The notes under the pieces were generated by a model. The model worked only from the letters and a program-made list of their open reading frames with translations, was not told where the DNA came from and ran no database searches. Positions 27,054 through 45,721 of a DNA stretch of 64,000 bases are shown here, piece by piece; within the stretch, counting starts at the first letter, position 1; each line of letters begins with the position of its first letter. Source of the DNA: Nanobdellati archaeon (lineage in GTDB: Archaea > Nanobdellota > Nanobdellia > CSSed11-243R1); assembly GCA_027007025.1 (NCBI GenBank), contig JALTFL010000002.1, positions 167,066 through 231,065 on the forward strand. Direction: 5' to 3'. The position numbers and the translations under genes are program-made.

Positions 27054-27680
27054 TTGGAAGTCATTTACGAGAATAAGACAAATGAGATTAGGCTCATTAT
27101 CTCAAATCTAGTCATCATCTTAGTGTTTGGTATCCCTATGATTAGATTAAAAAACATGTTCCTCCCACTGCTCACTATTGTGCTGTTCTCAACAACAATA
27201 ATATTCGTTTTAGTAATTAGGGTATTAATAAGATCAAAGATATATTTCTCTGACAACGGAATCAAGATAGTCGATGTAAACAAAGAAATTCAAATACCCA
27301 AAGAAATAATAAGAAGCATAAACAAGGTGAGATTAACGTTCAACAACTATAACAGGTACATAGATATCCTTGGAATCTGTACCACTAGAATACCCTATGC
27401 AAAAATTGAATCAAAAAGAGGTATATTAGTTTCGATATACAATCTATTTGAGATACTACTACAAAAAGTAAATCTAACAGACTATGTTGAAATGCAATCG
27501 ATGTTCACACAAAACAAAGAGTTAAGTGGGTGTGACATAACTATCCCTCAAACATTCGACTACAAACTGCTGATGAAAAAGTTCAAAGAATACTTTCCAG
27601 AAAAAGTAACTGACAAAATCGTGGTAAAAAAGCAAAAAATAAATTTTAATAATATATCACTTAAAAAGGTATTAAAATGA
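27054..27680 (+). CDS. hypothetical membrane protein
   Basis: 208 aa, 2 TM. Confidence 0.3.
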   Translation: MEVIYENKTNEIRLIISNLVIILVFGIPMIRLKNMFLPLLTIVLFSTTIIFVLVIRVLIRSKIYFSDNGIKIVDVNKEIQIPKEIIRSINKVRLTFNNYNRYIDILGICTTRIPYAKIESKRGILVSIYNLFEILLQKVNLTDYVEMQSMFTQNKELSGCDITIPQTFDYKLLMKKFKEYFPEKVTDKIVVKKQKINFNNISLKKVLK

Positions 27681-28240
27681 AATTTGAAGAAATAAAAAAG
27701 CAAGCTGAAAATTGTAGGAAATGTGATTTGTGGAAGACGCGCACAAATGTAGTCTTCGGTGAAGGTCCAACTAATGCAAAAGTGATGTTTATAGGTGAAG
27801 CCCCTGGTTTCAACGAGGACAAGCAGGGGAAACCTTTCGTGGGAAGGGCGGGAAAGTTTCTCGACGAACTTCTGACTGCCGCCGGGTTGAAACGTGAAGA
27901 TGTATACATCACAAACATTGTTAAGTGCCGTCCGCCAAACAACAGGGACCCGACAGACAGCGAGATAAAAGCGTGTTATCCTTATCTTGATTTTCAGATA
28001 AGCCACATAAATCCGAAGATTATTGTTCCTCTCGGCAGGCACGCTTCCAAAGTCATTTTTGAGAGATACAAATTACCTTTTGAAGGGATTTCTAAGGAGC
28101 ATGGAAAAACGAGGGAAATTTCAAATTTATTTGGAAAGCTGAAAATTATTCCTATGTATCATCCCGCGGCGGCAATTTACAACCAGTCGCTTAAAGGCGT
28201 TTTAATCGAGGATTTCAAAAAGGCGCTTGGAAATGTGTGA
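27677..28240 (+). CDS. udg: uracil-DNA glycosylase, family 4
   Basis: CxKCxL cluster, GEGP..AKVMFIGEAPG, FVGRAGKFL, ITNIVKCRPP. Confidence 0.8.
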   Translation: MKFEEIKKQAENCRKCDLWKTRTNVVFGEGPTNAKVMFIGEAPGFNEDKQGKPFVGRAGKFLDELLTAAGLKREDVYITNIVKCRPPNNRDPTDSEIKACYPYLDFQISHINPKIIVPLGRHASKVIFERYKLPFEGISKEHGKTREISNLFGKLKIIPMYHPAAAIYNQSLKGVLIEDFKKALGNV

Positions 28241-28796: not shown

Positions 28797-29040
28797 ATAC
28801 TACTTGTGCCTAAGAAAGAGCTGGCAAGTCGGGGGCGAGAAACGAAGTGTCAAATTTTCTGTGAGTAGTTTTACCTTAGCTTATGCTCTTTAGATTATGT
28901 TATAAAAAGAGGAGGTGCCGGAATGGCAAAGAAAAAGAAGCAAGGCAAGAAAAAATAATTTCTCTCACGAATTCAATTTTTTATCATTTTTTTCTTTTTT
29001 TGTTTTGAATATATATCCGAAACATTTATATATAAGTTAT

Positions 29041-29090
29041 GAATACATATTCTTAATATATATTCAAAATGAATATATAGAATATCTTCA
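29041..29090 (+). promoter_or_regulatory. AT-rich inverted-repeat operator-like region upstream of the DUF5320 operon
   Basis: GAATACATATTC palindrome, plus AATATATATTC / GAATATATAG inverted pair and a further GAATATATA at 29009. Confidence 0.3.
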
Positions 29091-29109
29091 AAAAATGGGG
29101 GTGGTAATT

Positions 29110-29397
29110 ATGCCATACGGAGATAGAACAGGTCCGGAAGGAAAAGGACCAAGAACTGGAAGAGGACTTGGATACTGCGGCGGATACGACAGCCCAGGAT
29201 ACACAAGAGGAACACCAAGAGGAATGGGTTACGGAAGAGGTGCAGGCAGGGGCTTCGGAAGAGGCTTCGGCTGGAACAGAGCACCTGTAAACCAGACAAC
29301 GACTCAATCAACAAATGACGACTCATTGAAAGAGGAAGTAAGTGCATTGAAAAAAATGGTTGAGGAATTGAAAAAGAAAATAGATGAACTTAAATAA
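29110..29397 (+). CDS. DUF5320-like GRG-repeat protein
   Basis: MPYGDRTGPEGKGPRTGRGLGYCGG then RGxGxGRG repeats and a C-terminal coiled coil. GGGGTGG SD. The track ORF from 28915 is an extension. Confidence 0.6.
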   Translation: MPYGDRTGPEGKGPRTGRGLGYCGGYDSPGYTRGTPRGMGYGRGAGRGFGRGFGWNRAPVNQTTTQSTNDDSLKEEVSALKKMVEELKKKIDELK

Positions 29398-29419
29398 TCG
29401 GGGCTGCTAGGTAAACACA

Positions 29420-29845
29420 ATGGAAACCAAAGTCATTAAGGAAGTACTAATTAAATCTGCTAAAAGCATTTACAACAGCTTACCAATCTTGATAGGCGCG
29501 ATTTTGCTTATAGGGTTGGTAAGCGCTGCAGTTCCCAAATCATACTATGGAATGCTTTTCAGCAAAAATCCGGTCATTGATTCTTTTATAGGAAGCGGCA
29601 TAGGGAGTATCTTAGCAGGAAACCCCGTGACAAGTTACATACTCGGCGGTGAGTTTTTGAAGCAGGGAGTCAGCCTTGTTGCTGTAACCGCGTTTTTGGT
29701 TGCATGGGTTACTGTAGGTATTGTCCAATATCCCGCGGAAGCGATTTTGCTTGGAAAGAAATTCGCACTATATAGAAACATAAGCGCGTTTTTCCTCGCG
29801 ATAGTCGTGGCGATTATAACTGTCGTGGTGGTGAGAGTCATATGA
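29420..29845 (+). CDS. predicted permease subunit (DUF318-like)
   Basis: 4 TM. Start overlaps the next gene. Confidence 0.45.
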   Translation: METKVIKEVLIKSAKSIYNSLPILIGAILLIGLVSAAVPKSYYGMLFSKNPVIDSFIGSGIGSILAGNPVTSYILGGEFLKQGVSLVAVTAFLVAWVTVGIVQYPAEAILLGKKFALYRNISAFFLAIVVAIITVVVVRVI

Positions 29846-30348
29846 AACGCACCGAAAAAAGCATGGCGGGATGGTACTTTTTGATTTCAGTAATCATACT
29901 TTACGTAATCTCATTTTTCATAAGCAAAAAAATTACGCTAAACGGATTAAGATATACTATTAAGATTTTTGAAAAGGTAATCCCAATCTTCGTGCTGATT
30001 TATGTTTTGCTTGTGTTAATCAACTACTTTGTCAAGCCGAAATCCCTGGCAAAGCATCTTGGCGAGGGCTCCGGAATAAAGGGATGGACAATCGCAGTTG
30101 TCGCGGGAATACTTTCAAGCGGACCAATTTATATGTGGTATCCATTGCTAAATGAGTTGCAAAAGCACGGAGTAAGGAATGGTTTGATTGCAGTATTCCT
30201 TTACAACAGAGCTGTTAAGCCGGCGCTTTTGCCATTGATAATCTTTTACTTTGGATTGAAATTTACAATTGTTTTGACAATTGTAATGATTGGTGTTTCC
30301 ATAATCCAAGGTATGATGATAGATAAATTTGTGGAGGTGAAATCATGA
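29842..30348 (+). CDS. predicted permease subunit
   Basis: 5 TM. Translationally coupled (ATGA overlap). Confidence 0.45.
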   Translation: MKRTEKSMAGWYFLISVIILYVISFFISKKITLNGLRYTIKIFEKVIPIFVLIYVLLVLINYFVKPKSLAKHLGEGSGIKGWTIAVVAGILSSGPIYMWYPLLNELQKHGVRNGLIAVFLYNRAVKPALLPLIIFYFGLKFTIVLTIVMIGVSIIQGMMIDKFVEVKS

Positions 30349-30656
30349 AAATTGCCGTATCATCTGAGGGAGATAATGAAAATACACAAGTGAGCATGGT
30401 AAGCGGAAGGGCGCCGTATTATTTAATTTTTGAAGACGAAAATCTTGTCGAAGCTGTAAAAAACCCATTTGCCCTTGGGGGGGGTGGAGCCGGATTTGGA
30501 GTAGCACAAATGCTTGCGAATAAGGGTGTTGAAATTGTCGTAAGTGGAAAGTTCGGCCCAAATATGAGTTCCTCACTTCAGTCGAAAGGAATAAAAATTG
30601 TTGAAATGTCTGGATTAACAGCAAAAGAGGCGGTAAAGAGGGTCTTAAATGCCTAG
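30345..30656 (+). CDS. NifX/NifB-like dinitrogenase FeMo-cofactor-binding domain protein
   Basis: [10 protein letters not shown]...[12 protein letters not shown]...[23 protein letters not shown] matches the PF02579-type pattern. Confidence 0.7.
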
Positions 30657-31005
30657 ACCTATAAAATTCAGAAGAGTTGGATTCAACCCAGGTGCAATTT
30701 ATTTCAAACCTGTAGGTATACCCATGTCAACTTTGGAAGAAGTTATCTTGACAATGGAAGAATTTGAGGCAATTAGGCTTAAGGACTTGGAAGGACTTGA
30801 CCAAACAGAAGCTGCCAAAAAAATGAATGTCTCCCAGCCCACATTCAACAGAATTTTAAACTCTGCAAGAAGCAAAATAGCCGATGCATTAACAAATGGT
30901 AAGGCAATCCGTATAGAAGGTGGAAATTATGAATTTGTTGGCGGCGGAAGAGGTATGGGTAGGGGCTTTGGTAGAGGAAGAGGTATGGGGCGTGGTAGAG
31001 GATAA
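30649..31005 (+). CDS. DUF134 (UPF0251) predicted DNA-binding protein with GRG-repeat tail
   Basis: [17 protein letters not shown]...[35 protein letters not shown]-terminus [21 protein letters not shown]. Confidence 0.7.
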
Positions 31006-31007
31006 TT

Positions 31008-31738
31008 ATGGAACCCAAAATTAAGGCTAAAAATGTTACTTTGATAACTATTTATGACAACTATCAATATAACCCTAAATTAAAAACAGGGTGGGGCTTT
31101 TCTTGCCTAGTAAAAGTGAATGGAAAAAATATTTTGTTTGATACAGGAGGAAATGATTCTATCCTGTTAGGTAACATGGAAAAGATGAACATTGATCCAA
31201 ATCAAATAGATATTGTTGTATTATCACATATTCATGGAGACCATACTGGTGGGTTAACCGAATTTCTAGAAAAAATAGCAATGTAACTGTTTATGTGCCA
31301 CACGCCTTTCCCAAAAGCTTTAAAGCCAATGTTAAAAGTAGGGGAGTAAAAGTGATTGACGTCGATAAACCAATAAAAATTTTTAATTCTATTTACACAA
31401 CTGGCGAGCTTGGAACATTCATCAAAGAACAATCCTTAGTAATAACATCAGACAAAGGCTTAATTATTGTAACTGGTTGTTCTCACCCAGGTATTGTTAA
31501 TATTGTAAAAAAGGCCGAAGAAATTTTTGACAAAGAAGTTTATTTAGTTATAGGCGGATTTCATTTAATTGGAAGTTCCGATTCTGAATTAAAGAGTATC
31601 ATATCTGATTTTAGAAAACTTGGTGTCAAAAATGTAGCCCCTTGTCACTGCAGTGGAGATAGAGCAAGAGAATTATTTCGAGAGGAATATGGAGAGAACT
31701 TTATAAATAATGGCGTAGGAAAAATTATTAAAGTGTAG
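31008..31738 (+). pseudogene. MBL-fold metallo-hydrolase interrupted by a frameshift at an A6 run
   Basis: Two ORFs (31008..31286 and 31295..31738) form one MBL protein (HIHGDH motif in part 1). The frames rejoin if the A6 run at 31270-31275 is read as A7 (..FLEKNSNVTVYVPHAF..). Confidence 0.55.
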
Positions 31739-31757
31739 AAAATTCAGGTGATTAAAA

Positions 31758-32081
31758 ATGGTAAAAGTGGATAGAGAAAAATGTATTGGCTGCGGTGTCT
31801 GTGTAAGCGTTTGTCCTGAAGGCTTTGAAATTGTAGAAGGAAAATCAAGAGTAAAAAATGAGAATGCCAAATGTATTGCTGAAGCAGCTGCTAAATGCCC
31901 TATGAAAGCAATTTTATTAAATGAAAATGAAGAAAAAAGTTCCTCACAACCGCAACAACAATCTCAACAAAAACCATCCCAACCATTAGAAAGAGGTATG
32001 AGACGTGGCAGAGGAAGAGGCATGGGAAGAGGACTCGGCAGGGGACGCGGAATGGGGCGCGGAAGAGGCGGTAAGTTTTGA
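31758..32081 (+). CDS. 4Fe-4S ferredoxin-domain protein with GRG-repeat tail
   Basis: CIGCGVCVSVCP and CPMKA cysteine motifs. C-terminal [22 protein letters not shown]. Confidence 0.6.
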   Translation: MVKVDREKCIGCGVCVSVCPEGFEIVEGKSRVKNENAKCIAEAAAKCPMKAILLNENEEKSSSQPQQQSQQKPSQPLERGMRRGRGRGMGRGLGRGRGMGRGRGGKF

Positions 32082-32818
32082 ATATTTTGCTTTTGATTTT
32101 TATAGCGACTATGATTGATGGACTTGTCGCATTGATAGGTGTCTTCACGCTTATTTTTAATCCAAAAGTGCTTAACAAAATAATTTACGGGCTTGTCGCT
32201 TTCTCGGCGGGGGCTCTTTTCAGCGGGGCGCTGCTTCACATGATTCCCGAAACGTTGGGAAAGGCTTCTTCAAATATGATTTTTGGATTGGTGATAATTG
32301 GGTTTGCCGTTTTTTATTTGATGGAGCGGCTTCTTCACTGGCACCACTGCCACAAGGACAAGTGCGAAGTCCATTCATTCAGCTATCTAATTTTATTTGG
32401 AGACGGGATTCACAATTTCATAGATGGCTTGATAATCGCCGCGGGCTTTGCTGTCGGCATTCCATTTGGTATTATAACAACTTTGCTCATAATTGGACAT
32501 GAGATACCGCAGGAGCTCGGCGACTTCGGCGTTTTGGTTTACGGCGGGTTCAAGCCAAAGAAAGCGCTTTTATATAACTACATCTCGCAGCTTACCTGTG
32601 TGATTGGAGGGTTTATAGGGTATTTATTTTCATATTCTTCGCAGATGTTTTCAACTTATCTTCTGCCGTTTGCAGCTGGAGGATTCATTTACATATCGGC
32701 GTCCGATTTGATTCCCTCGCTTCACACAGAAAAGAACGTCGGCAAGTCCATGATTGCGTTTGTAGTATTTTTAACAGGTGTTCTTTTGATGGCTGGGCTC
32801 AAATTTGTTTTGCAGTAA
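32078..32818 (+). CDS. zupT: ZIP-family zinc/iron permease
   Basis: GHEIPQELGDFGVL motif. 8 TM. Confidence 0.7.
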   Translation: MNILLLIFIATMIDGLVALIGVFTLIFNPKVLNKIIYGLVAFSAGALFSGALLHMIPETLGKASSNMIFGLVIIGFAVFYLMERLLHWHHCHKDKCEVHSFSYLILFGDGIHNFIDGLIIAAGFAVGIPFGIITTLLIIGHEIPQELGDFGVLVYGGFKPKKALLYNYISQLTCVIGGFIGYLFSYSSQMFSTYLLPFAAGGFIYISASDLIPSLHTEKNVGKSMIAFVVFLTGVLLMAGLKFVLQ

Positions 32819-43920: not shown

Positions 43921-45315
43921 TTATCCCATCACCTTTCTTACCATAGGATTCATTTCAGCCATATGTGCCTTTTGAAGGTCCTCATATATCTTGTATATAA
44001 TCATTACTGTCAAGATTATACCTGTCCCTCTGCTGAGGGCGTTGAATACATCCGCAACTGCGGCAAGCGCACCTACTGTGATTCCACCAAGAATTGTAAG
44101 CGGTATTATGTACCTCGCTAGAACTTTTTCTAATATTCTTTTGTCTCTTCTGAACCCTGGCATGCTCAGTCCAGAGCTTAATATCTGGTCTGCCACGTCG
44201 CTGGGACTGCTTTTGCCCACGTTCAGCCATAAATATGAGAAGAATATGGAACCTATAATCATAAATGATGCGTAGAAAATGGTTGACTTTAATGCAACCA
44301 TGTTTAATCCATTAACGAAGATTGATGAGATTGATGGATGTTGGATATACTTAGCTATCCCGGAAATTGGCACCTGCGTGTACCTGCCCCCTCCCATTTG
44401 GACTGTTTCAAATTCACCTAGCCATGGAAGACCCGCGTTGAACATCATCAATGCCCACATCTGAAGGCTGGCGATGAGCGCTGCTGTTAATATAACAGGT
44501 ATATTCGAAGTGTAAAACCATTTGATGGGCCATTTTATACCATATCCTCTGACCTTACCGAAGGATAAAGGAATGTTAATCTGCACACCTGAGAAATATA
44601 CCGCCATTAAGAACACCACTATTGTTGACACTATACTTATGAACGGCCAAAATGCAAGGGATGAATTTCCGCTTGATACAAGTGCTATTATTTTGGGTAC
44701 GGCTCCTACGGGGTATTGCGTTCTGGGGTCAAGCAATGGAGATAACCCTTTTGTTATTATTTGTCTGGATACCCCTGCTGCGATGAACAATGATATACCT
44801 GAGCCGACACCCCATTTGCTTGTTACTTCATCAAGAAGCATAAGTATTGAACCGCCTGCAATTAATTGTACTATTAGAATTGTTGCACCTACCAGTCCTG
44901 GAACTGCAGGTGGAAGTGCACCAGATAGTACATATGCAGCGTTTTCGAATATTATAAAAAATAGCGAAAAGAATTTTTGATATCCTTGGTATTTTTTTCT
45001 ACCTTCGGGTGTTTTCAAGTCGACTTTTATAACTTCCGCACCTGAAAGCAATTGAAGCATGATTGATCCAGTTACTATAGGACCAATACCAAGTGATATC
45101 AATGAGCCGAAGTTAGCGGCGAGTAAAATTGAAAGAGTTTCAAATTGGGCGACATAATTTCTGTTAAGGCCATATAATGGTGTTAAAGATAGAATAAAAT
45201 AAAGTGTTAGCGCTACTCCCGTCCATATTAACTTTTCTTTAAGCGTGAGCTTCTTTATAGGTTTTACAACCTCTGGAAAGCTCGAAAAAATTTTTTCAAA
45301 TCCCATTTTATTCAC
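43921..45315 (-). CDS. secY: preprotein translocase subunit SecY
   Basis: 10-TM SecY signature. Positioned after L15. Confidence 0.9.
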   Translation of the reverse strand: MNKMGFEKIFSSFPEVVKPIKKLTLKEKLIWTGVALTLYFILSLTPLYGLNRNYVAQFETLSILLAANFGSLISLGIGPIVTGSIMLQLLSGAEVIKVDLKTPEGRKKYQGYQKFFSLFFIIFENAAYVLSGALPPAVPGLVGATILIVQLIAGGSILMLLDEVTSKWGVGSGISLFIAAGVSRQIITKGLSPLLDPRTQYPVGAVPKIIALVSSGNSSLAFWPFISIVSTIVVFLMAVYFSGVQINIPLSFGKVRGYGIKWPIKWFYTSNIPVILTAALIASLQMWALMMFNAGLPWLGEFETVQMGGGRYTQVPISGIAKYIQHPSISSIFVNGLNMVALKSTIFYASFMIIGSIFFSYLWLNVGKSSPSDVADQILSSGLSMPGFRRDKRILEKVLARYIIPLTILGGITVGALAAVADVFNALSRGTGIILTVMIIYKIYEDLQKAHMAEMNPMVRKVMG

Positions 45316-45721
45316 TTAATATCTTTCCGCCGGCAGCTTCTATTTTATTTTTGGCTTTTTCTGTGAAAATTTTTACTTTTACCATAAGTTTTTTTGTGAC
45401 TTTACCGCTTCCCAATAATTTTTGGTAGCCAAGCTTTGACAAGTCTATTTCGTTGCCTATCTTTGAAGCCATTTTGTCCAGGCTGCCGATATTTGTTGCC
45501 TTTGGGTGGAAATCCTGCTTTTGTTTTACGCTTGTGAATCCTTTTCCATGCGAGCTTAATTCGGGATGTTTAATTAAGAGGGTTCTTTTATGGGCTGCTC
45601 TTTTGTTTATGCCCGCCTTTCCTCTTCCTCCTCTGTTACCTGCTCCTCGGGCTCTCTTGCCGCTGCCTCTGCCTGTTTTTCTTCCTCTAATTCTTTTGGA
45701 TTTCTTTCTGTGTCTTATCAT
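45308..45721 (-). CDS. rpl15: ribosomal protein L15 (uL15)
   Basis: RKKSKRIRGRKTGRGSGKRARGAGNRGGRGKAG. Confidence 0.85.
   Translation of the reverse strand: MIRHRKKSKRIRGRKTGRGSGKRARGAGNRGGRGKAGINKRAAHKRTLLIKHPELSSHGKGFTSVKQKQDFHPKATNIGSLDKMASKIGNEIDLSKLGYQKLLGSGKVTKKLMVKVKIFTEKAKNKIEAAGGKILSE

What the first reader, a model, noticed from the sequence alone, without database searches (positions are those of the whole stretch)
28915..32818. DUF5320 / permease / NifX-like / DUF134 / MBL / ferredoxin / ZIP cluster with GRG-repeat tails on three unrelated proteins
Eight co-oriented, tightly spaced or overlapping genes. Three different domain proteins end in near-identical G-R-G-(M/F/L) repeat tracts: DUF5320 29110-29397, DUF134 30649-31005 and 4Fe-4S ferredoxin 31758-32081. 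The DUF134 plus NifX-like neighbourhood is a conserved module of unknown function in anaerobic archaea and bacteria. Adding a ferredoxin, an MBL hydrolase, a two-subunit permease and a ZIP metal transporter points to metal or cofactor handling. The shared GRG tails could be an interaction, condensate or nucleic-acid-binding module that targets all three proteins to one complex.
Basis: partly seen in the sequence, partly recalled or inferred. Interest (0 to 1): 0.7.

Follow-up and report, generated by a model that had tools for sequence, protein, structure and literature searches.

The report
Archaeal metal–sulfur operon with GRG tags
A small archaeon carries an eight-gene operon for handling iron-sulfur or other metals, three of whose proteins share a floppy, positively charged Gly-Arg-Gly repeat. 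The same repeat marks this gene set across many anaerobic microbes, which suggests a common tag that brings the proteins together.

Summary
Positions 29110-32818 form one co-oriented operon: DUF5320, two half-size permeases, a NifX-like protein, DUF134, an MBL hydrolase split by a one-base frameshift, a ferredoxin and a ZIP transporter.

True GRG-repeat tracts occur only in three of its proteins within the 64 kb window. In DUF5320 the tract is internal and belongs to the family, so it is not a tail.

The gene order DUF5320-permease-permease-NifX-DUF134 recurs in Methanosarcinales and DPANN archaea. Across 80 DUF5320 loci, 77 of 81 strict GRG tracts fall in this gene set.

Many bacterial proteins fuse a NifX domain, (GMGRG)n repeats and a coiled coil, usually with a ferredoxin as well. 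The separate genes in this window therefore work together.

The promoter carries a TATA box followed by variants of TGAATAnnTATTCA. This palindrome is conserved upstream of DUF5320 across archaeal phyla and tracks an SQPTF recognition helix in DUF134.

Best reading: a DUF134-autoregulated, IssA/ORP-like metal-sulfur handling system. The cationic GRG repeat would be a portable module that binds a polyanionic Fe-S species or co-assembles with the DUF5320 scaffold.

The function of the repeat is inferred, not shown. Verdict: a new variant of a known kind, of moderately high interest.

The parts
29017..29037 (+). Archaeal promoter core: a BRE-like CCGAAACA followed by the TATA box TTTATATA (29025-29032).
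   Evidence: Read directly from the sequence. The same block, CCGAAACATTTATA(T/A)A..GTTA, is conserved upstream of DUF5320 in L091, L093 and L002. A TTTAAATA or TTTATATA box precedes the palindrome in nine of the fourteen palindrome-bearing loci printed: Methanosarcinales, DPANN, two unclassified archaeal contigs and the 'Dojkabacteria' contig.
29040..29079 (.). Candidate operator. It holds two abutting one-mismatch copies of the 14-bp palindrome TGAATAnnTATTCA (29040-29053 TGAATACATATTCT; 29053-29066 TTAATATATATTCA) and a further TGAATATATA half-site repeat at 29070-29079. Another half-site lies at 29006-29015.
   Evidence: TGAATATATA with up to one mismatch gives 5 hits in 74 bp, out of 21 in 64 kb where 7.9 are expected. 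This is the only TGAATA-N(0-18)-TATTCA in the window. The exact 14-mer occurs 21 times in 1.0 Mb of DUF5320 loci against 0.28 expected, nearly always 29-115 nt upstream of DUF5320 or NifX genes. It co-varies with an SQPTF recognition helix in DUF134.
29110..29397 (+). DUF5320 protein (95 aa). It has the conserved N-terminal motif MPxGDxTGPxGxGPxTGRGxGYC with one invariant Cys, an internal GRG-aromatic repeat tract (residues 33-55, nt 29206-29274), and a C-terminal coiled coil.
   Evidence: Pfam PF17253 gives 94.5 bits over residues 1-94. Alignment A1 shows the invariant columns. pI 9.67. There are 510 confirmed DUF5320-encoding stretches in GTDB species representatives.
29420..29845 (+). Half-size permease A (141 aa), ArsP_1/UPF0718-type.
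   Evidence: Pfam PF03773 gives 38.3 bits, matching profile positions 14-134 of 294. The pair is conserved directly after DUF5320 in L022, L025, L043, L050, L059, L074 and L091.
29842..30348 (+). Half-size permease B (168 aa), a paralogue of A. The two presumably form a heterodimer.
   Evidence: Pfam PF03773 gives 25.1 bits, below the cut-off, and matches the same profile half, 9-133 of 294. It overlaps both neighbours by 4 nt.
30345..30656 (+). NifX-like (IPR003731 / Nitro_FeMo-Co) single-domain protein, 103 aa, with no tail and no Cys.
   Evidence: Pfam PF02579 gives 60.2 bits. Best PDB matches are MTH1175 1eo1 (1.5e-16), TM1290 1rdu and the orange protein 2wfb. pI 6.23.
30649..31005 (+). 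DUF134 (UPF0251) helix-turn-helix protein, 118 aa, with a disordered C-terminal tail [21 protein letters not shown] (residues 98-118, nt 30940-31002).
   Evidence: Pfam PF02001 gives 91.7 bits. The AF2 core has block-mean pLDDT of 88-95 (residues 31-90), and the tail at 98-118 is below 50. The fold matches sigma-E region 4 bound to -35 DNA (2h27, rmsd 0.9 over 48 columns, E 0.05, so the match is weak) and the DeoR DNA-binding domain. 106 of the 120 closest homologues have an RG tract after residue 90.
31008..31738 (+). MBL-fold hydrolase, interrupted by a frameshift in the A6 run at 31270-31275 (ORFs 31008-31286 and 31295-31738).
   Evidence: The repaired 243-aa protein matches PDB 7dck over residues 7-242 (6e-59) and also matches TM1679 3h3e. 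The same split is present in L001. An MBL of this type ends many DUF5320-NifX-MinDFer4 operons.
31758..32081 (+). Single-[4Fe-4S] ferredoxin (residues 1-56), then a Q/S/P-rich linker and a C-terminal tail [29 protein letters not shown] (residues 77-107, nt 31986-32078).
   Evidence: Pfam Fer4_13 gives 45.5 bits. The tail raises the net charge at pH 7 from +0.5 to +10.5. RG-tailed ferredoxins are found in archaea and bacteria and account for 39 of the 147 best 50%-identity clusters in an index-free search. Six of the seven RG-tailed ferredoxin lineages examined have the gene next to or near DUF5320, NifX or MinD-Fer4 genes.
32078..32818 (+). ZIP-family divalent-metal transporter (246 aa). Its start overlaps the ferredoxin stop.
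   Evidence: Pfam PF02535 gives 136.7 bits. NCBIfam ZupT gives 46 bits, below the cut-off. In the relatives L091, L092 and L093 a 246-aa ZIP directly follows and overlaps DUF134.

Best explanation
This is the version, in a DPANN archaeon, of a widespread anaerobe-specific gene neighbourhood built around a NifX-like (IssA/ORP-type) domain. The neighbourhood handles iron-sulfur or other metal-sulfur species. The model has five parts.

1. Operon (shown). The eight genes form one operon. It is driven by a TATA promoter whose start region is covered by variants of the palindrome TGAATAnnTATTCA.

2. Regulation (inferred). DUF134, the sigma-region-4-like HTH protein encoded in the operon, binds that palindrome and autoregulates the operon. 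This would include the ZIP metal importer.

3. Working partners. The tail-less NifX-like protein, the DUF5320 protein (cationic GRG-aromatic tract plus coiled coil) and the GRG-tailed ferredoxin act as physical partners. In many bacteria the same three modules are one polypeptide: NifX, (GMGRG)n, coiled coil, ferredoxin. That fusion is shown. That the separate proteins here form a complex is inferred.

4. The GRG repeat (inferred). The G-R-G-(M/F/L) repeat is a portable, intrinsically disordered, strongly cationic module. By analogy with the Gly/Arg/aromatic tail of Pyrococcus IssA, which is proposed to wrap anionic thioferrate (FeS2-)n chains, the most likely role is to bind a common polyanionic Fe-S species. 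That would gather a scaffold (DUF5320), an electron carrier or cluster acceptor (ferredoxin) and the regulator (DUF134, which could sense the filling of the store) on one particle.

5. Other components. The two half-permeases and ZIP would supply or remove the metal or ligand. The MBL enzyme's role is unknown, and here it is frameshifted.
For: Operon and promoter anatomy.

Gene order is conserved:
- Near-identical in L001.
- DUF5320-perm-perm-NifX-DUF134-ZIP in L091 and L092, and DUF5320-DUF134-ZIP-RadA in L093.
- The same five-gene core in Methanosarcinales, Woesearchaeota and Aenigmatarchaeota.
- Within 5 kb of DUF5320: NifX 64/80, MinD-type 59/80, DUF134 38/80.

The GRG tract is specific to this gene set:
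- for the window.
- 77 of 81 strict tracts in 1 Mb.
- 106 of 120 DUF134 homologues.
- 39 of 147 ferredoxin clusters in an unbiased search.

Fusions:
- All 120 best hits to a NifX-RG-coiled-coil query carry PF02579 plus PF17253.
- 103 of those 120 add a di-cluster ferredoxin.
- Ferredoxin-RG-coiled-coil (P0324) and ferredoxin-RG-Cys-ribbon (P0290, P0348) forms exist.
- The short RG plus Cys-ribbon module sits on CDF transporters in four lineages.

Regulator:
- HTH fold and a disordered tail.
- The palindrome occurs 21 times against 0.28 expected, just downstream of the TATA box in most palindrome-bearing loci (nine of the fourteen printed).
- 15 of 16 loci whose DUF134 has an SQ(P/S)T(F/L) helix have the palindrome with at most one mismatch. 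The one exception is cut off upstream.
- 25 of 28 loci not classed as SQPTF have none. Of the other three, in two the helix could not be read by the script (L050, L066), and one SR(K)T locus (L067) has a single one-mismatch match.

Iron-sulfur link:
- The NifX-like protein's best structural relatives are MTH1175, which the IssA paper calls a tail-less IssA-type protein, and the orange protein.
- IssA is an IPR003731 domain plus a cationic Gly/Arg/aromatic tail proposed to bind thioferrate, and it rebuilds the [4Fe-4S] cluster of a ferredoxin in vitro (PMC5524996).
- The DvH ORP complex combines a NifX-like protein with MinD-Fer4 ATPases and takes clusters from MrpORP (PMC6345978).
- A DtxR-family gene lies next to DUF5320 in L002.
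Against: - No experiment or computation here shows what the GRG tract binds.
- The thioferrate-binding role of the IssA tail is itself only proposed. P. furiosus lacking IssA still forms thioferrate-like iron (PMC8219758).
- The window tails are much denser in G and R (57% G and 29% R+K in DUF134) and poorer in aromatics than the IssA tail as described. I could not obtain the IssA sequence for a direct comparison.
- The window NifX-like protein fails the paper's IssA-clade criteria: pI 6.2, and 10% Gly in the last 40 residues.
- No MinD-Fer4 ATPase lies in the 64 kb window.
- The transporters (ZIP, CDF) do not identify the metal. Zinc or another cation is possible.
- The palindrome-DUF134 link is correlative and partly phylogenetic. 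Three Asgard-group loci (two Promethearchaeota, one Odinarchaeota) have the palindrome but no DUF134 within 10 kb.
- The MBL is frameshifted here, and in L001 the ferredoxin tail and ZIP are also disrupted. Some members may therefore be decaying, or the assemblies may carry indel errors.
Confidence: 0.45

Rival explanations
1. The GRG repeats are protein-protein 'stickers' of the RG/aromatic pi-cation type. They drive a condensate or multi-protein complex scaffolded by the DUF5320 coiled coil and need no inorganic polyanion.
For: The module travels with a coiled coil in DUF5320 and in the fusions. It appears on diverse client proteins of one neighbourhood. The tails are predicted to be disordered. 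Aromatic or Met residues sit at regular positions between the RG units.
Against: Uniformly cationic tails with no acidic partner segment in any cluster protein would repel each other unless a polyanion bridges them. The DUF134 tail has a net charge of +6 and the ferredoxin tail +10. No acidic-tract protein recurs in the neighbourhood.
Confidence: 0.22
2. The GRG tracts are nucleic-acid-binding RGG/RG boxes, or AT-hook-like minor-groove binders. They raise the affinity of DUF134 for its AT-rich operator and give DUF5320 and the ferredoxin DNA, RNA or G-quadruplex binding.
For: DUF134 is an HTH protein with an AT-rich operator. A survey of archaeal G-quadruplexes flagged the Methanosarcina mazei DUF134 and DUF5320 proteins as carrying an RG-type G4-binding motif (PMC7565180). 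RGG boxes bind nucleic acids in eukaryotes (established knowledge).
Against: The same module sits on ferredoxins, NifX-like proteins and the cytoplasmic end of a membrane CDF transporter. It is also fused between a NifX domain and a ferredoxin. A nucleic-acid role has no obvious rationale for any of these. RG tracts are absent from the other DNA-binding proteins in these loci.
Confidence: 0.15
3. The operon is mainly a divalent-metal (Zn, Fe, Mn, Co) homeostasis or detoxification unit. DUF134 would be a metal-responsive regulator of ZIP or CDF transporters. DUF5320 and the RG/Cys-ribbon modules would act as metal buffers or sensors. The Fe-S polymer idea would then be wrong.
For: The minimal conserved set in the closest lineage is DUF5320-DUF134-ZIP. 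Elsewhere it is DUF5320-CDF-DUF134, with the CDF carrying the RG plus Cys-rich ribbon. DtxR and TRASH genes are nearby in L002. The permease pair belongs to a family that includes the ArsP organoarsenical exporter.
Against: Across the wider sample the dominant partners are NifX-like (64/80) and MinD-Fer4 (59/80) genes, whereas ZIP is found in 3/80. The fusions join the RG module to NifX and ferredoxin domains, not to transporters. GRG repeats carry no metal-ligating side chains.
Confidence: 0.15
4. The GRG tracts are non-functional low-complexity expansions from replication slippage of GGN-AGR repeats, tolerated at protein termini.
For: The tracts are encoded by imperfect 12-nt DNA repeats. 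Tail length varies between homologues. The tail is frameshifted in L001.
Against: The tract is kept in 106 of 120 DUF134 homologues of 52-94% identity (61-94% for all but one). It forms part of a Pfam family model. It is restricted to one functional gene set across bacteria and archaea. It carries conserved sub-motifs such as GRGLGRGPRDGRGxGRGGGGRR.
Confidence: 0.03

Closest known systems
IssA (PF2025) iron-sulfur storage protein of Pyrococcus furiosus (PMC5524996)
   Same: It has a NifX-like IPR003731 domain combined with a disordered, cationic, Gly/Arg/aromatic-rich repeat region. It comes from an anaerobe and has a functional link to a single-cluster ferredoxin, whose [4Fe-4S] cluster IssA rebuilds in vitro. 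The window's NifX-like protein is closest to MTH1175, which that paper describes as a tail-less IssA-type protein.
   Different: Here the NifX domain has no tail. The cationic repeat is carried in trans by DUF5320, DUF134 and a ferredoxin. The repeats are far richer in G and R and poorer in aromatics and Pro. No thioferrate or particle data exist. The window protein fails the paper's pI and Gly criteria.
Orange-protein (ORP) complex of Desulfovibrio vulgaris (Orp3/4/5/8/9; PMC6345978)
   Same: It is an anaerobe-specific cluster combining a ~100-aa NifX-like protein (ORP, PDB 2wfb; hit 1.2e-09) with Fe-S proteins. The wider DUF5320 neighbourhood contains the Orp3/Orp4-type MinD-Fer4 ATPase pair in most loci.
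   Different: The window has no MinD-Fer4 ATPase and no MrpORP. Regulation is by an archaeal TATA promoter and operator, not by sigma-54 and OrpR. Neither DUF134 nor DUF5320 nor GRG tails was mentioned in the passages of the ORP paper that I read.
Eukaryotic RGG/RG motifs (such as those of FMRP, FUS and nucleolin)
   Same: They are disordered Arg-Gly repeats with interspersed aromatic or hydrophobic residues, and they act as multivalent binders of polyanions (established knowledge). A G4-motif search picked up the M. mazei DUF134 and DUF5320 proteins for this reason.
   Different: The hosts here are prokaryotic. The module is attached to redox and metal proteins and a transporter, so the partner polyanion need not be nucleic acid. 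Arginine methylation is unknown here, although a class I SAM methyltransferase lies within 5 kb in 12 of 80 loci.
Sigma-70 region 4 / ECF sigma -35-binding HTH and the DeoR DNA-binding domain
   Same: The DUF134 core (residues 36-83) superposes at 0.7-0.9 Å on these DNA-bound HTH domains and matches Sigma70_r4_2 below the cut-off.
   Different: DUF134 is a stand-alone ~95-aa domain with flanking beta strands. In this subfamily it also carries an RG tail, and often a Cys-rich ribbon. It is not a sigma factor.
ZupT/ZIP and CDF metal transporters; UPF0718/ArsP_1 permeases
   Same: Family membership of the ZIP is clear (136.7 bits). The permease halves match ArsP_1.
   Different: The substrates are unknown. 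The permease is split into two paralogous half-proteins. In related loci a CDF transporter carries the short RG plus Cys-ribbon module at its C-terminus.

Membership tests
DUF5320 (PF17253) | Full-length match to the Pfam model above the gathering score, including the N-terminal MPxGDxTGP...GRGxGYC motif. | tested here: met
   94.5 bits against a cut-off of 27; residues 1-94 match profile positions 1-99 of 99. The invariant motif columns are seen in alignment A1.
DUF134 / UPF0251 (PF02001) | Match to the Pfam model above the gathering score, with an HTH core. | tested here: met
   91.7 bits against 27. NCBIfam PRK04217 gives 70.4 bits, below its cut-off of 115. The AF2 model shows an HTH like sigma region 4.
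IssA clade of IPR003731 proteins (criteria of PMC5524996) | Presence of the IPR003731 / Nitro_FeMo-Co globular domain. | tested here: met
   PF02579 gives 60.2 bits against 26.3. The best PDB relative is MTH1175, at 1.5e-16.
IssA clade of IPR003731 proteins (criteria of PMC5524996) | pI of at least 9, fewer than 5 Cys, and at least 20% Gly in the C-terminal 40 residues (a cationic Gly-rich tail). | tested here: not met
   pI 6.23, 0 Cys, and 4 of 40 Gly in the last 40 residues. The protein has no tail. The criteria come from the paper's supplement.
IssA clade of IPR003731 proteins (criteria of PMC5524996) | Binds thioferrate and forms Fe-S nanoparticles. | not testable with these tools
   This needs anaerobic reconstitution, XAS or Mössbauer spectroscopy, and EM.
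ORP complex (Desulfovibrio) | Orp3/Orp4-type MinD-like ATPases with two [4Fe-4S] motifs encoded alongside the NifX-like ORP. | tested here: not met
   An HMM built from MinD-Fer4 proteins finds no such gene in the 64 kb window; its only hit is the small ferredoxin. Such genes are present in 59 of 80 related loci.
ORP complex (Desulfovibrio) | MrpORP (an Mrp/NBP35 P-loop domain fused to a NifX-like domain). | tested here: not met
   NCBIfam MrpORP gives 20.7 bits against a cut-off of 450, and only the C-terminal domain is matched.
Single-cluster [4Fe-4S] ferredoxin (Fer4_13 type) | A CxxCxxC...CP cluster motif in a ~55-aa domain. | tested here: met
   Fer4_13 gives 45.5 bits against 24.5. Cys 9, 12, 15, 19, 39 and 47 were read from the translation.
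ZIP metal transporter (PF02535) | Match above the gathering score. | tested here: met
   136.7 bits against 35.1. The ZupT equivalog is not met: 46 bits against 252.
ArsP organoarsenical permease (PF03773 ArsP_1) | A full-length ~300-aa permease matching the whole model, with arsenical efflux activity. | tested here: inconclusive
   There are two half-size proteins, and each matches only the first half of the model (38.3 and 25.1 bits against 32.3). The substrate was not tested.
MBL-fold hydrolase similar to 7dck and TM1679 | An intact ~245-aa reading frame with the HxHxDH motif. | tested here: not met
   The HIHGDH motif is present, but the frame is broken at the A6 run 31270-31275. It is intact only after adding one A.

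The most novel reading that the evidence does not exclude
The G-R-G-hydrophobic repeat would be a portable 'address tag' of anaerobic bacteria and archaea. It would recruit otherwise unrelated proteins to a membrane-less iron-sulfur (thioferrate-like) mineral-protein body nucleated by NifX-like/IssA-type domains and the DUF5320 coiled-coil scaffold. Clients would include a ferredoxin, a transcription factor, NifX-like carriers and the cytoplasmic end of a CDF transporter. DUF134 would read the filling state of that store through the same tag and control the operon through the pan-archaeal operator TGAATAnnTATTCA. This would be a prokaryotic scaffold-client organelle for Fe-S storage, with a defined targeting signal and a dedicated regulon.
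Probability: 0.25. Interest if true: 0.85.

Novelty: new variant of a known kind. Interest (0 to 1): 0.62.

Why it matters
How strict anaerobes store, traffic and sense iron-sulfur material is poorly understood. IssA and the ORP complex are the only studied entry points. DUF134, DUF5320 and the small NifX-like proteins are among the most widespread uncharacterised families of anaerobes.

This locus and its relatives supply three testable handles that I did not find described in the searchable literature:

1. A shared cationic GRG module links DUF5320, DUF134, ferredoxins, NifX-like proteins and CDF transporters. Natural fusion proteins show that these act together.
2. A sharply defined operator, TGAATAnnTATTCA, is conserved from Methanosarcinales to Asgard and DPANN archaea. 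It co-varies with the DUF134 recognition helix, which gives DUF134 a candidate function and a candidate regulon.
3. The same operon and operator exist in Methanosarcinales, an order with genetically tractable members, so the ideas can be tested directly.

If the tag recruits proteins to an Fe-S mineral body, it would be a new kind of prokaryotic compartment-targeting signal.

Tried and rejected
- **Encapsulin link.** I looked for encapsulin cargo or targeting-peptide literature. The 'DUF134' hits in that paper and others were prefix matches to DUF1345 and the like, and were irrelevant.
- **IssA sequence.** I tried to obtain the IssA tail sequence for a direct alignment. The supplement holds only primers and a figure legend, and PMC2953673 is not held. 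The comparison therefore rests on the paper's verbal description.
- **Pfam and NCBIfam on the RG plus Cys-ribbon module.** Only sub-threshold generic zinc-ribbon hits came back.
- **PDB sequence searches.** DUF134 and DUF5320 have no solved relatives.
- **Word-index bias.** The first ferredoxin homologue search is biased by its word index towards RG words. I repeated it with the index-free representative search.
- **Script artefacts.** My first family-assignment script mixed families through RG low complexity, and it appeared to label a 'CDF' family with RG tracts. I redid it with domain-only seeds. The CDF signal proved real, because the transporter itself ends in the module.
- **Threshold choice.** A relaxed RG criterion produced many false tracts in spurious ORFs of high-GC loci, so the statistics use a strict criterion of three or more GRG.
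- **Other RG tract in the window.** The tract at 45620-45661 is ribosomal protein uL15.
- **tRNA scan.** None found in the window.
- **Literature search for the palindrome.** No relevant hit.
- **Recent duplication.** I rejected recent DNA duplication between the three tracts, because they are only 64-82% identical over 33 nt.

Full report
**1. What is in the window**

Positions 29110-32818 (+) hold eight co-oriented genes. Their spacing runs from an 8-nt overlap to a 22-nt gap. Pfam assigns them as follows.

| Gene | Coordinates | Pfam score |
|---|---|---|
| DUF5320 | 29110-29397 | 94.5 bits |
| Half-size ArsP_1-type permease A | 29420-29845 | 38.3 bits |
| Half-size ArsP_1-type permease B | 29842-30348 | 25.1 bits |
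| NifX-like Nitro_FeMo-Co protein | 30345-30656 | 60.2 bits |
| DUF134 | 30649-31005 | 91.7 bits |
| MBL hydrolase | 31008-31738 | 47.3 bits |
| Single-cluster ferredoxin | 31758-32081 | 45.5 bits |
| ZIP transporter | 32078-32818 | 136.7 bits |

- Both permease halves match the same half of the ArsP_1 model.
- RadA follows downstream. Homologue names point to a DPANN archaeon of the Nanoarchaeota or Woesearchaeota.
- The GTG at 28915 is not the DUF5320 start. The family's invariant N-terminus MPYGD begins at ATG 29110, and the promoter lies in between.
- The MBL is two ORFs because the run A6 at 31270-31275 is one base short. Adding one A gives a 243-aa protein that aligns end to end with PDB 7dck (E 6e-59). 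The same break is present in the 98.3%-identical contig L001.

**2. The GRG tracts**

- DUF134 ends in [21 protein letters not shown] (net charge +6).
- The ferredoxin ends in [29 protein letters not shown] (+10).
- DUF5320 carries RGTPRGMGYGRGAGRGFGRGFGW internally, at residues 33-55. That stretch is followed by a coiled coil and lies inside the Pfam model.

A six-frame scan of all 64 kb finds GR-rich tracts only in the DUF134 and ferredoxin tails. The one exception is the ordinary G/R-rich N-terminus of ribosomal protein uL15. The DUF5320 tract fell below that threshold, but the repeat search recovers it in the same DNA repeat family.

At DNA level the tracts are 64-82% identical over 33 nt. 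They are therefore not recent copies of one another. An AlphaFold2 model of DUF134 has a confident core (block-mean pLDDT 88-95 for residues 31-90) and a tail below 50.

**3. Conservation of the cluster**

- The near-identical L001 has the same order.
- Relatives with 80% identical DUF134 (L091, L092) have DUF5320-perm-perm-NifX-DUF134-ZIP. L093 has DUF5320-DUF134-ZIP-RadA. MBL and the ferredoxin are therefore lineage-specific insertions between DUF134 and ZIP.
- A scan of GTDB species representatives found 510 DUF5320-encoding stretches, and 80 loci were fetched.
- Within 5 kb of DUF5320 in those 80 loci, the counts are: NifX-like 64, MinD-type ATPase 59, Fer4 domain 53, DUF134 38, a second DUF5320 24, ArsP-like permease 13, SAM methyltransferase 12, MBL 9, ZIP 3.
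- The exact order DUF5320-perm-perm-NifX-DUF134 recurs in Methanosarcinales, Woesearchaeota and Aenigmatarchaeota.
- MBL typically closes DUF5320-NifX-NifX-MinDFer4-MinDFer4 operons in Thermoplasmatales and in bacteria.

**4. The GRG tract is a hallmark of this gene set**

- Of the 120 closest DUF134 homologues, 106 have an RG tract after residue 90. Of the same 120, 62 add a Cys-rich ribbon.
- RG-tailed ferredoxins occur in archaea and bacteria and share a conserved sub-motif, GRGLGRGPRDGRGxGRGGGGRR.
- In an index-free search, RG-tailed forms account for 39 of the 147 best 50%-identity ferredoxin clusters.
- Six of seven such lineages have the gene beside or near DUF5320, NifX or MinD-Fer4 genes.
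- In about 1 Mb of DUF5320 loci, 81 ORFs carry three or more GRG units within about 20 residues. Of these, 77 belong to DUF5320, DUF134, NifX-like, ferredoxin or a small RG plus Cys-ribbon module. One of the rest is an end-truncated ribbon ORF. The other three lie in ORFs of no assigned family in loci with GC above 0.6, and I take them to be spurious.
- The RG plus ribbon module has no Pfam model. With a shorter G/R stretch, it also ends CDF transporters in four lineages.

The 'compositional bias only' reading is therefore rejected.

**5. Fusions**

I searched with a Zixibacteria protein consisting of a NifX domain, (GMGRG)n repeats and a coiled coil.

- All 120 best hits carry PF02579 plus PF17253.
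- 103 of them add a C-terminal di-cluster ferredoxin.
- Ferredoxin-RG-coiled-coil and ferredoxin-RG-ribbon proteins also exist.

The three modules encoded separately in the window (NifX-like, RG plus coiled coil, ferredoxin) are therefore one polypeptide in many bacteria. That is strong evidence for a joint function.

**6. Regulation**

Upstream of DUF5320 lies a BRE/TATA element, CCGAAACATTTATATA (29017-29032). It is followed by TGAATACATATTCT (29040-53), TTAATATATATTCA (29053-66) and TGAATATATA (29070-79).

- The canonical palindrome TGAATAnnTATTCA occurs 21 times in the 1.0 Mb of loci against 0.28 expected. Markov simulations give 0-2.
- Nearly all copies lie 29-115 nt upstream of DUF5320 or NifX genes. 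In most palindrome-bearing loci they directly follow a TTTAAATA or TTTATATA box (nine of the fourteen printed).
- This holds in Methanosarcinales, Promethearchaeota, Odinarchaeota, Woesearchaeota and Aenigmatarchaeota.
- Fifteen of 16 loci whose DUF134 has an SQ(P/S)T(F/L) recognition helix carry the palindrome with at most one mismatch. The exception is truncated upstream.
- Twenty-five of 28 loci not classed as SQPTF have none. Of the other three, in two the helix could not be read by my script (L050, L066), and one SR(K)T locus (L067) has a single one-mismatch match.
- The DUF134 core superposes on sigma-E region 4 bound to DNA and on the DeoR DNA-binding domain.

I infer that DUF134 is the operator-binding autoregulator. 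The operator's position over the expected transcription start suggests repression. This is correlative. Three Asgard-group loci (two Promethearchaeota, one Odinarchaeota) have the palindrome without a DUF134 within 10 kb. I found no literature on the motif.

**7. Comparison with known systems**

- The NifX-like protein is closest to MTH1175, TM1290 and the Desulfovibrio orange protein.
- IssA of P. furiosus is an IPR003731 domain plus a disordered cationic Gly/Arg/aromatic tail. The tail is proposed to wrap anionic thioferrate. IssA forms Fe-S nanoparticles and rebuilds the cluster of a ferredoxin in vitro. The IssA paper describes MTH1175 as an IssA-type protein with little or no tail.
- The ORP complex joins a NifX-like protein to MinD-Fer4 ATPases and receives clusters from MrpORP.
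- The window locus is not a member of either system in the strict sense. The NifX-like protein fails the IssA tail and pI criteria. No MinD-Fer4 or MrpORP is present in the window.
- It looks like a disaggregated IssA-type arrangement, with the cationic repeat supplied in trans.
- The IssA tail's role is itself only a proposal, and cells lacking IssA still make thioferrate-like iron.
- The only prior mention I found of RG motifs on DUF134 and DUF5320 is a G-quadruplex motif survey.

**8. Verdict**

The best mechanism is a DUF134-autoregulated metal-sulfur handling operon whose proteins share a portable cationic GRG module that binds a common polyanionic Fe-S species or co-assembles on the DUF5320 scaffold (confidence about 0.45).

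The rivals are a polyanion-independent sticker or condensate role, nucleic-acid binding, and general divalent-metal homeostasis. Novelty: a new variant of a known kind. Interest: 0.62.

Noticed in passing
window 31266-31300 (A6 run at 31270-31275); L001 7251-7981: The MBL hydrolase gene is broken by a one-base deficit in a homopolymer A run. Adding one A restores a full-length 243-aa protein that matches PDB 7dck. The same break is present in the 98.3%-identical contig L001. It could be a shared pseudogene, transcriptional or translational slippage, or a systematic assembly error.
   Followed up: partly
L011, L021, L022, L025, L027, L029, L032, L041-L043, L050, L062, L064, L074, L094 (upstream of DUF5320/NifX genes); window 29040-29066: The 14-bp palindrome TGAATAnnTATTCA, usually placed just after a TATA box, is conserved upstream of DUF5320 operons across Methanosarcinales, Asgard and DPANN archaea. 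It occurs 21 times against 0.28 expected and co-varies with an SQPTF recognition helix in DUF134. I found no literature on it.
   Followed up: yes
L002 6506-7546, L011 458-1510, L042 7337-8419, L062 1885-2931; L005 3363-3548; many DUF134 C-termini: This is an unannotated portable module: an RG-rich linker followed by a Cys-rich ribbon (GPGGxCxCPxCG...H..G.PC....CPxCG..M.R; six Cys and one His). It occurs as a 60-75-aa stand-alone protein and at the C-terminus of DUF134, DUF5320, ferredoxins and CDF metal transporters. In the CDF copies the G/R stretch is short and only some pass my RG criterion. It has no Pfam family.
   Followed up: partly
window 27677-28240; L002 11075-11647; L044, L050, L053, L062, L074: A family-4-type uracil-DNA glycosylase gene recurs inside or next to these clusters in several unrelated lineages. 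It is sometimes wedged between ZIP genes or placed before the MBL. Family-4 enzymes are known to hold an Fe-S cluster. The reason for the association is unknown.
   Followed up: no
L001 8001-8309 and 8355-9069, against window 31758-32818: In the near-identical contig the ferredoxin's GRG tail is frameshifted (it ends ...GMGERTWQGTRNGTR) and the ZIP gene is split in two. The window copies are intact and agree with more distant homologues (P0122; the 246-aa ZIPs in L091-L093). There are 12 gapped positions in the 8.8 kb alignment between the two contigs.
   Followed up: partly
L062 (record titled Candidatus Dojkabacteria): A contig binned as a CPR bacterium carries an archaeal-style TATA box plus the TGAATAnnTATTCA operator and a DPANN-like DUF5320-CDF-DUF134 operon. 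It is either mis-binned or a horizontal transfer.
   Followed up: no
L002 4198-4815(-), L007 5049-5633, and 12 of 80 DUF5320 loci: A class I SAM-dependent methyltransferase recurs beside DUF5320. In L002 it is divergently transcribed from the palindrome-bearing intergenic region. It might methylate the RG arginines or a small molecule. No such gene lies in the window cluster.
   Followed up: no
L083 476-802, L063 9661-9999 (Thermoplasmatales): In at least two Thermoplasmatales DUF134 proteins (L083, L063) the Arg/Gly-rich stretch is at the N-terminus (MPGYGHRHGGQRGRCRGRRW...) instead of the C-terminus. The Thermoplasmatales DUF134 genes read here use an SRKTLW recognition helix, and these loci lack an exact palindrome.
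   Followed up: no
window 45308-45721 (-): The only other G/R-rich stretch in the window is the N-terminus of ribosomal protein uL15, next to SecY. This is an ordinary feature of that family.
   Followed up: yes
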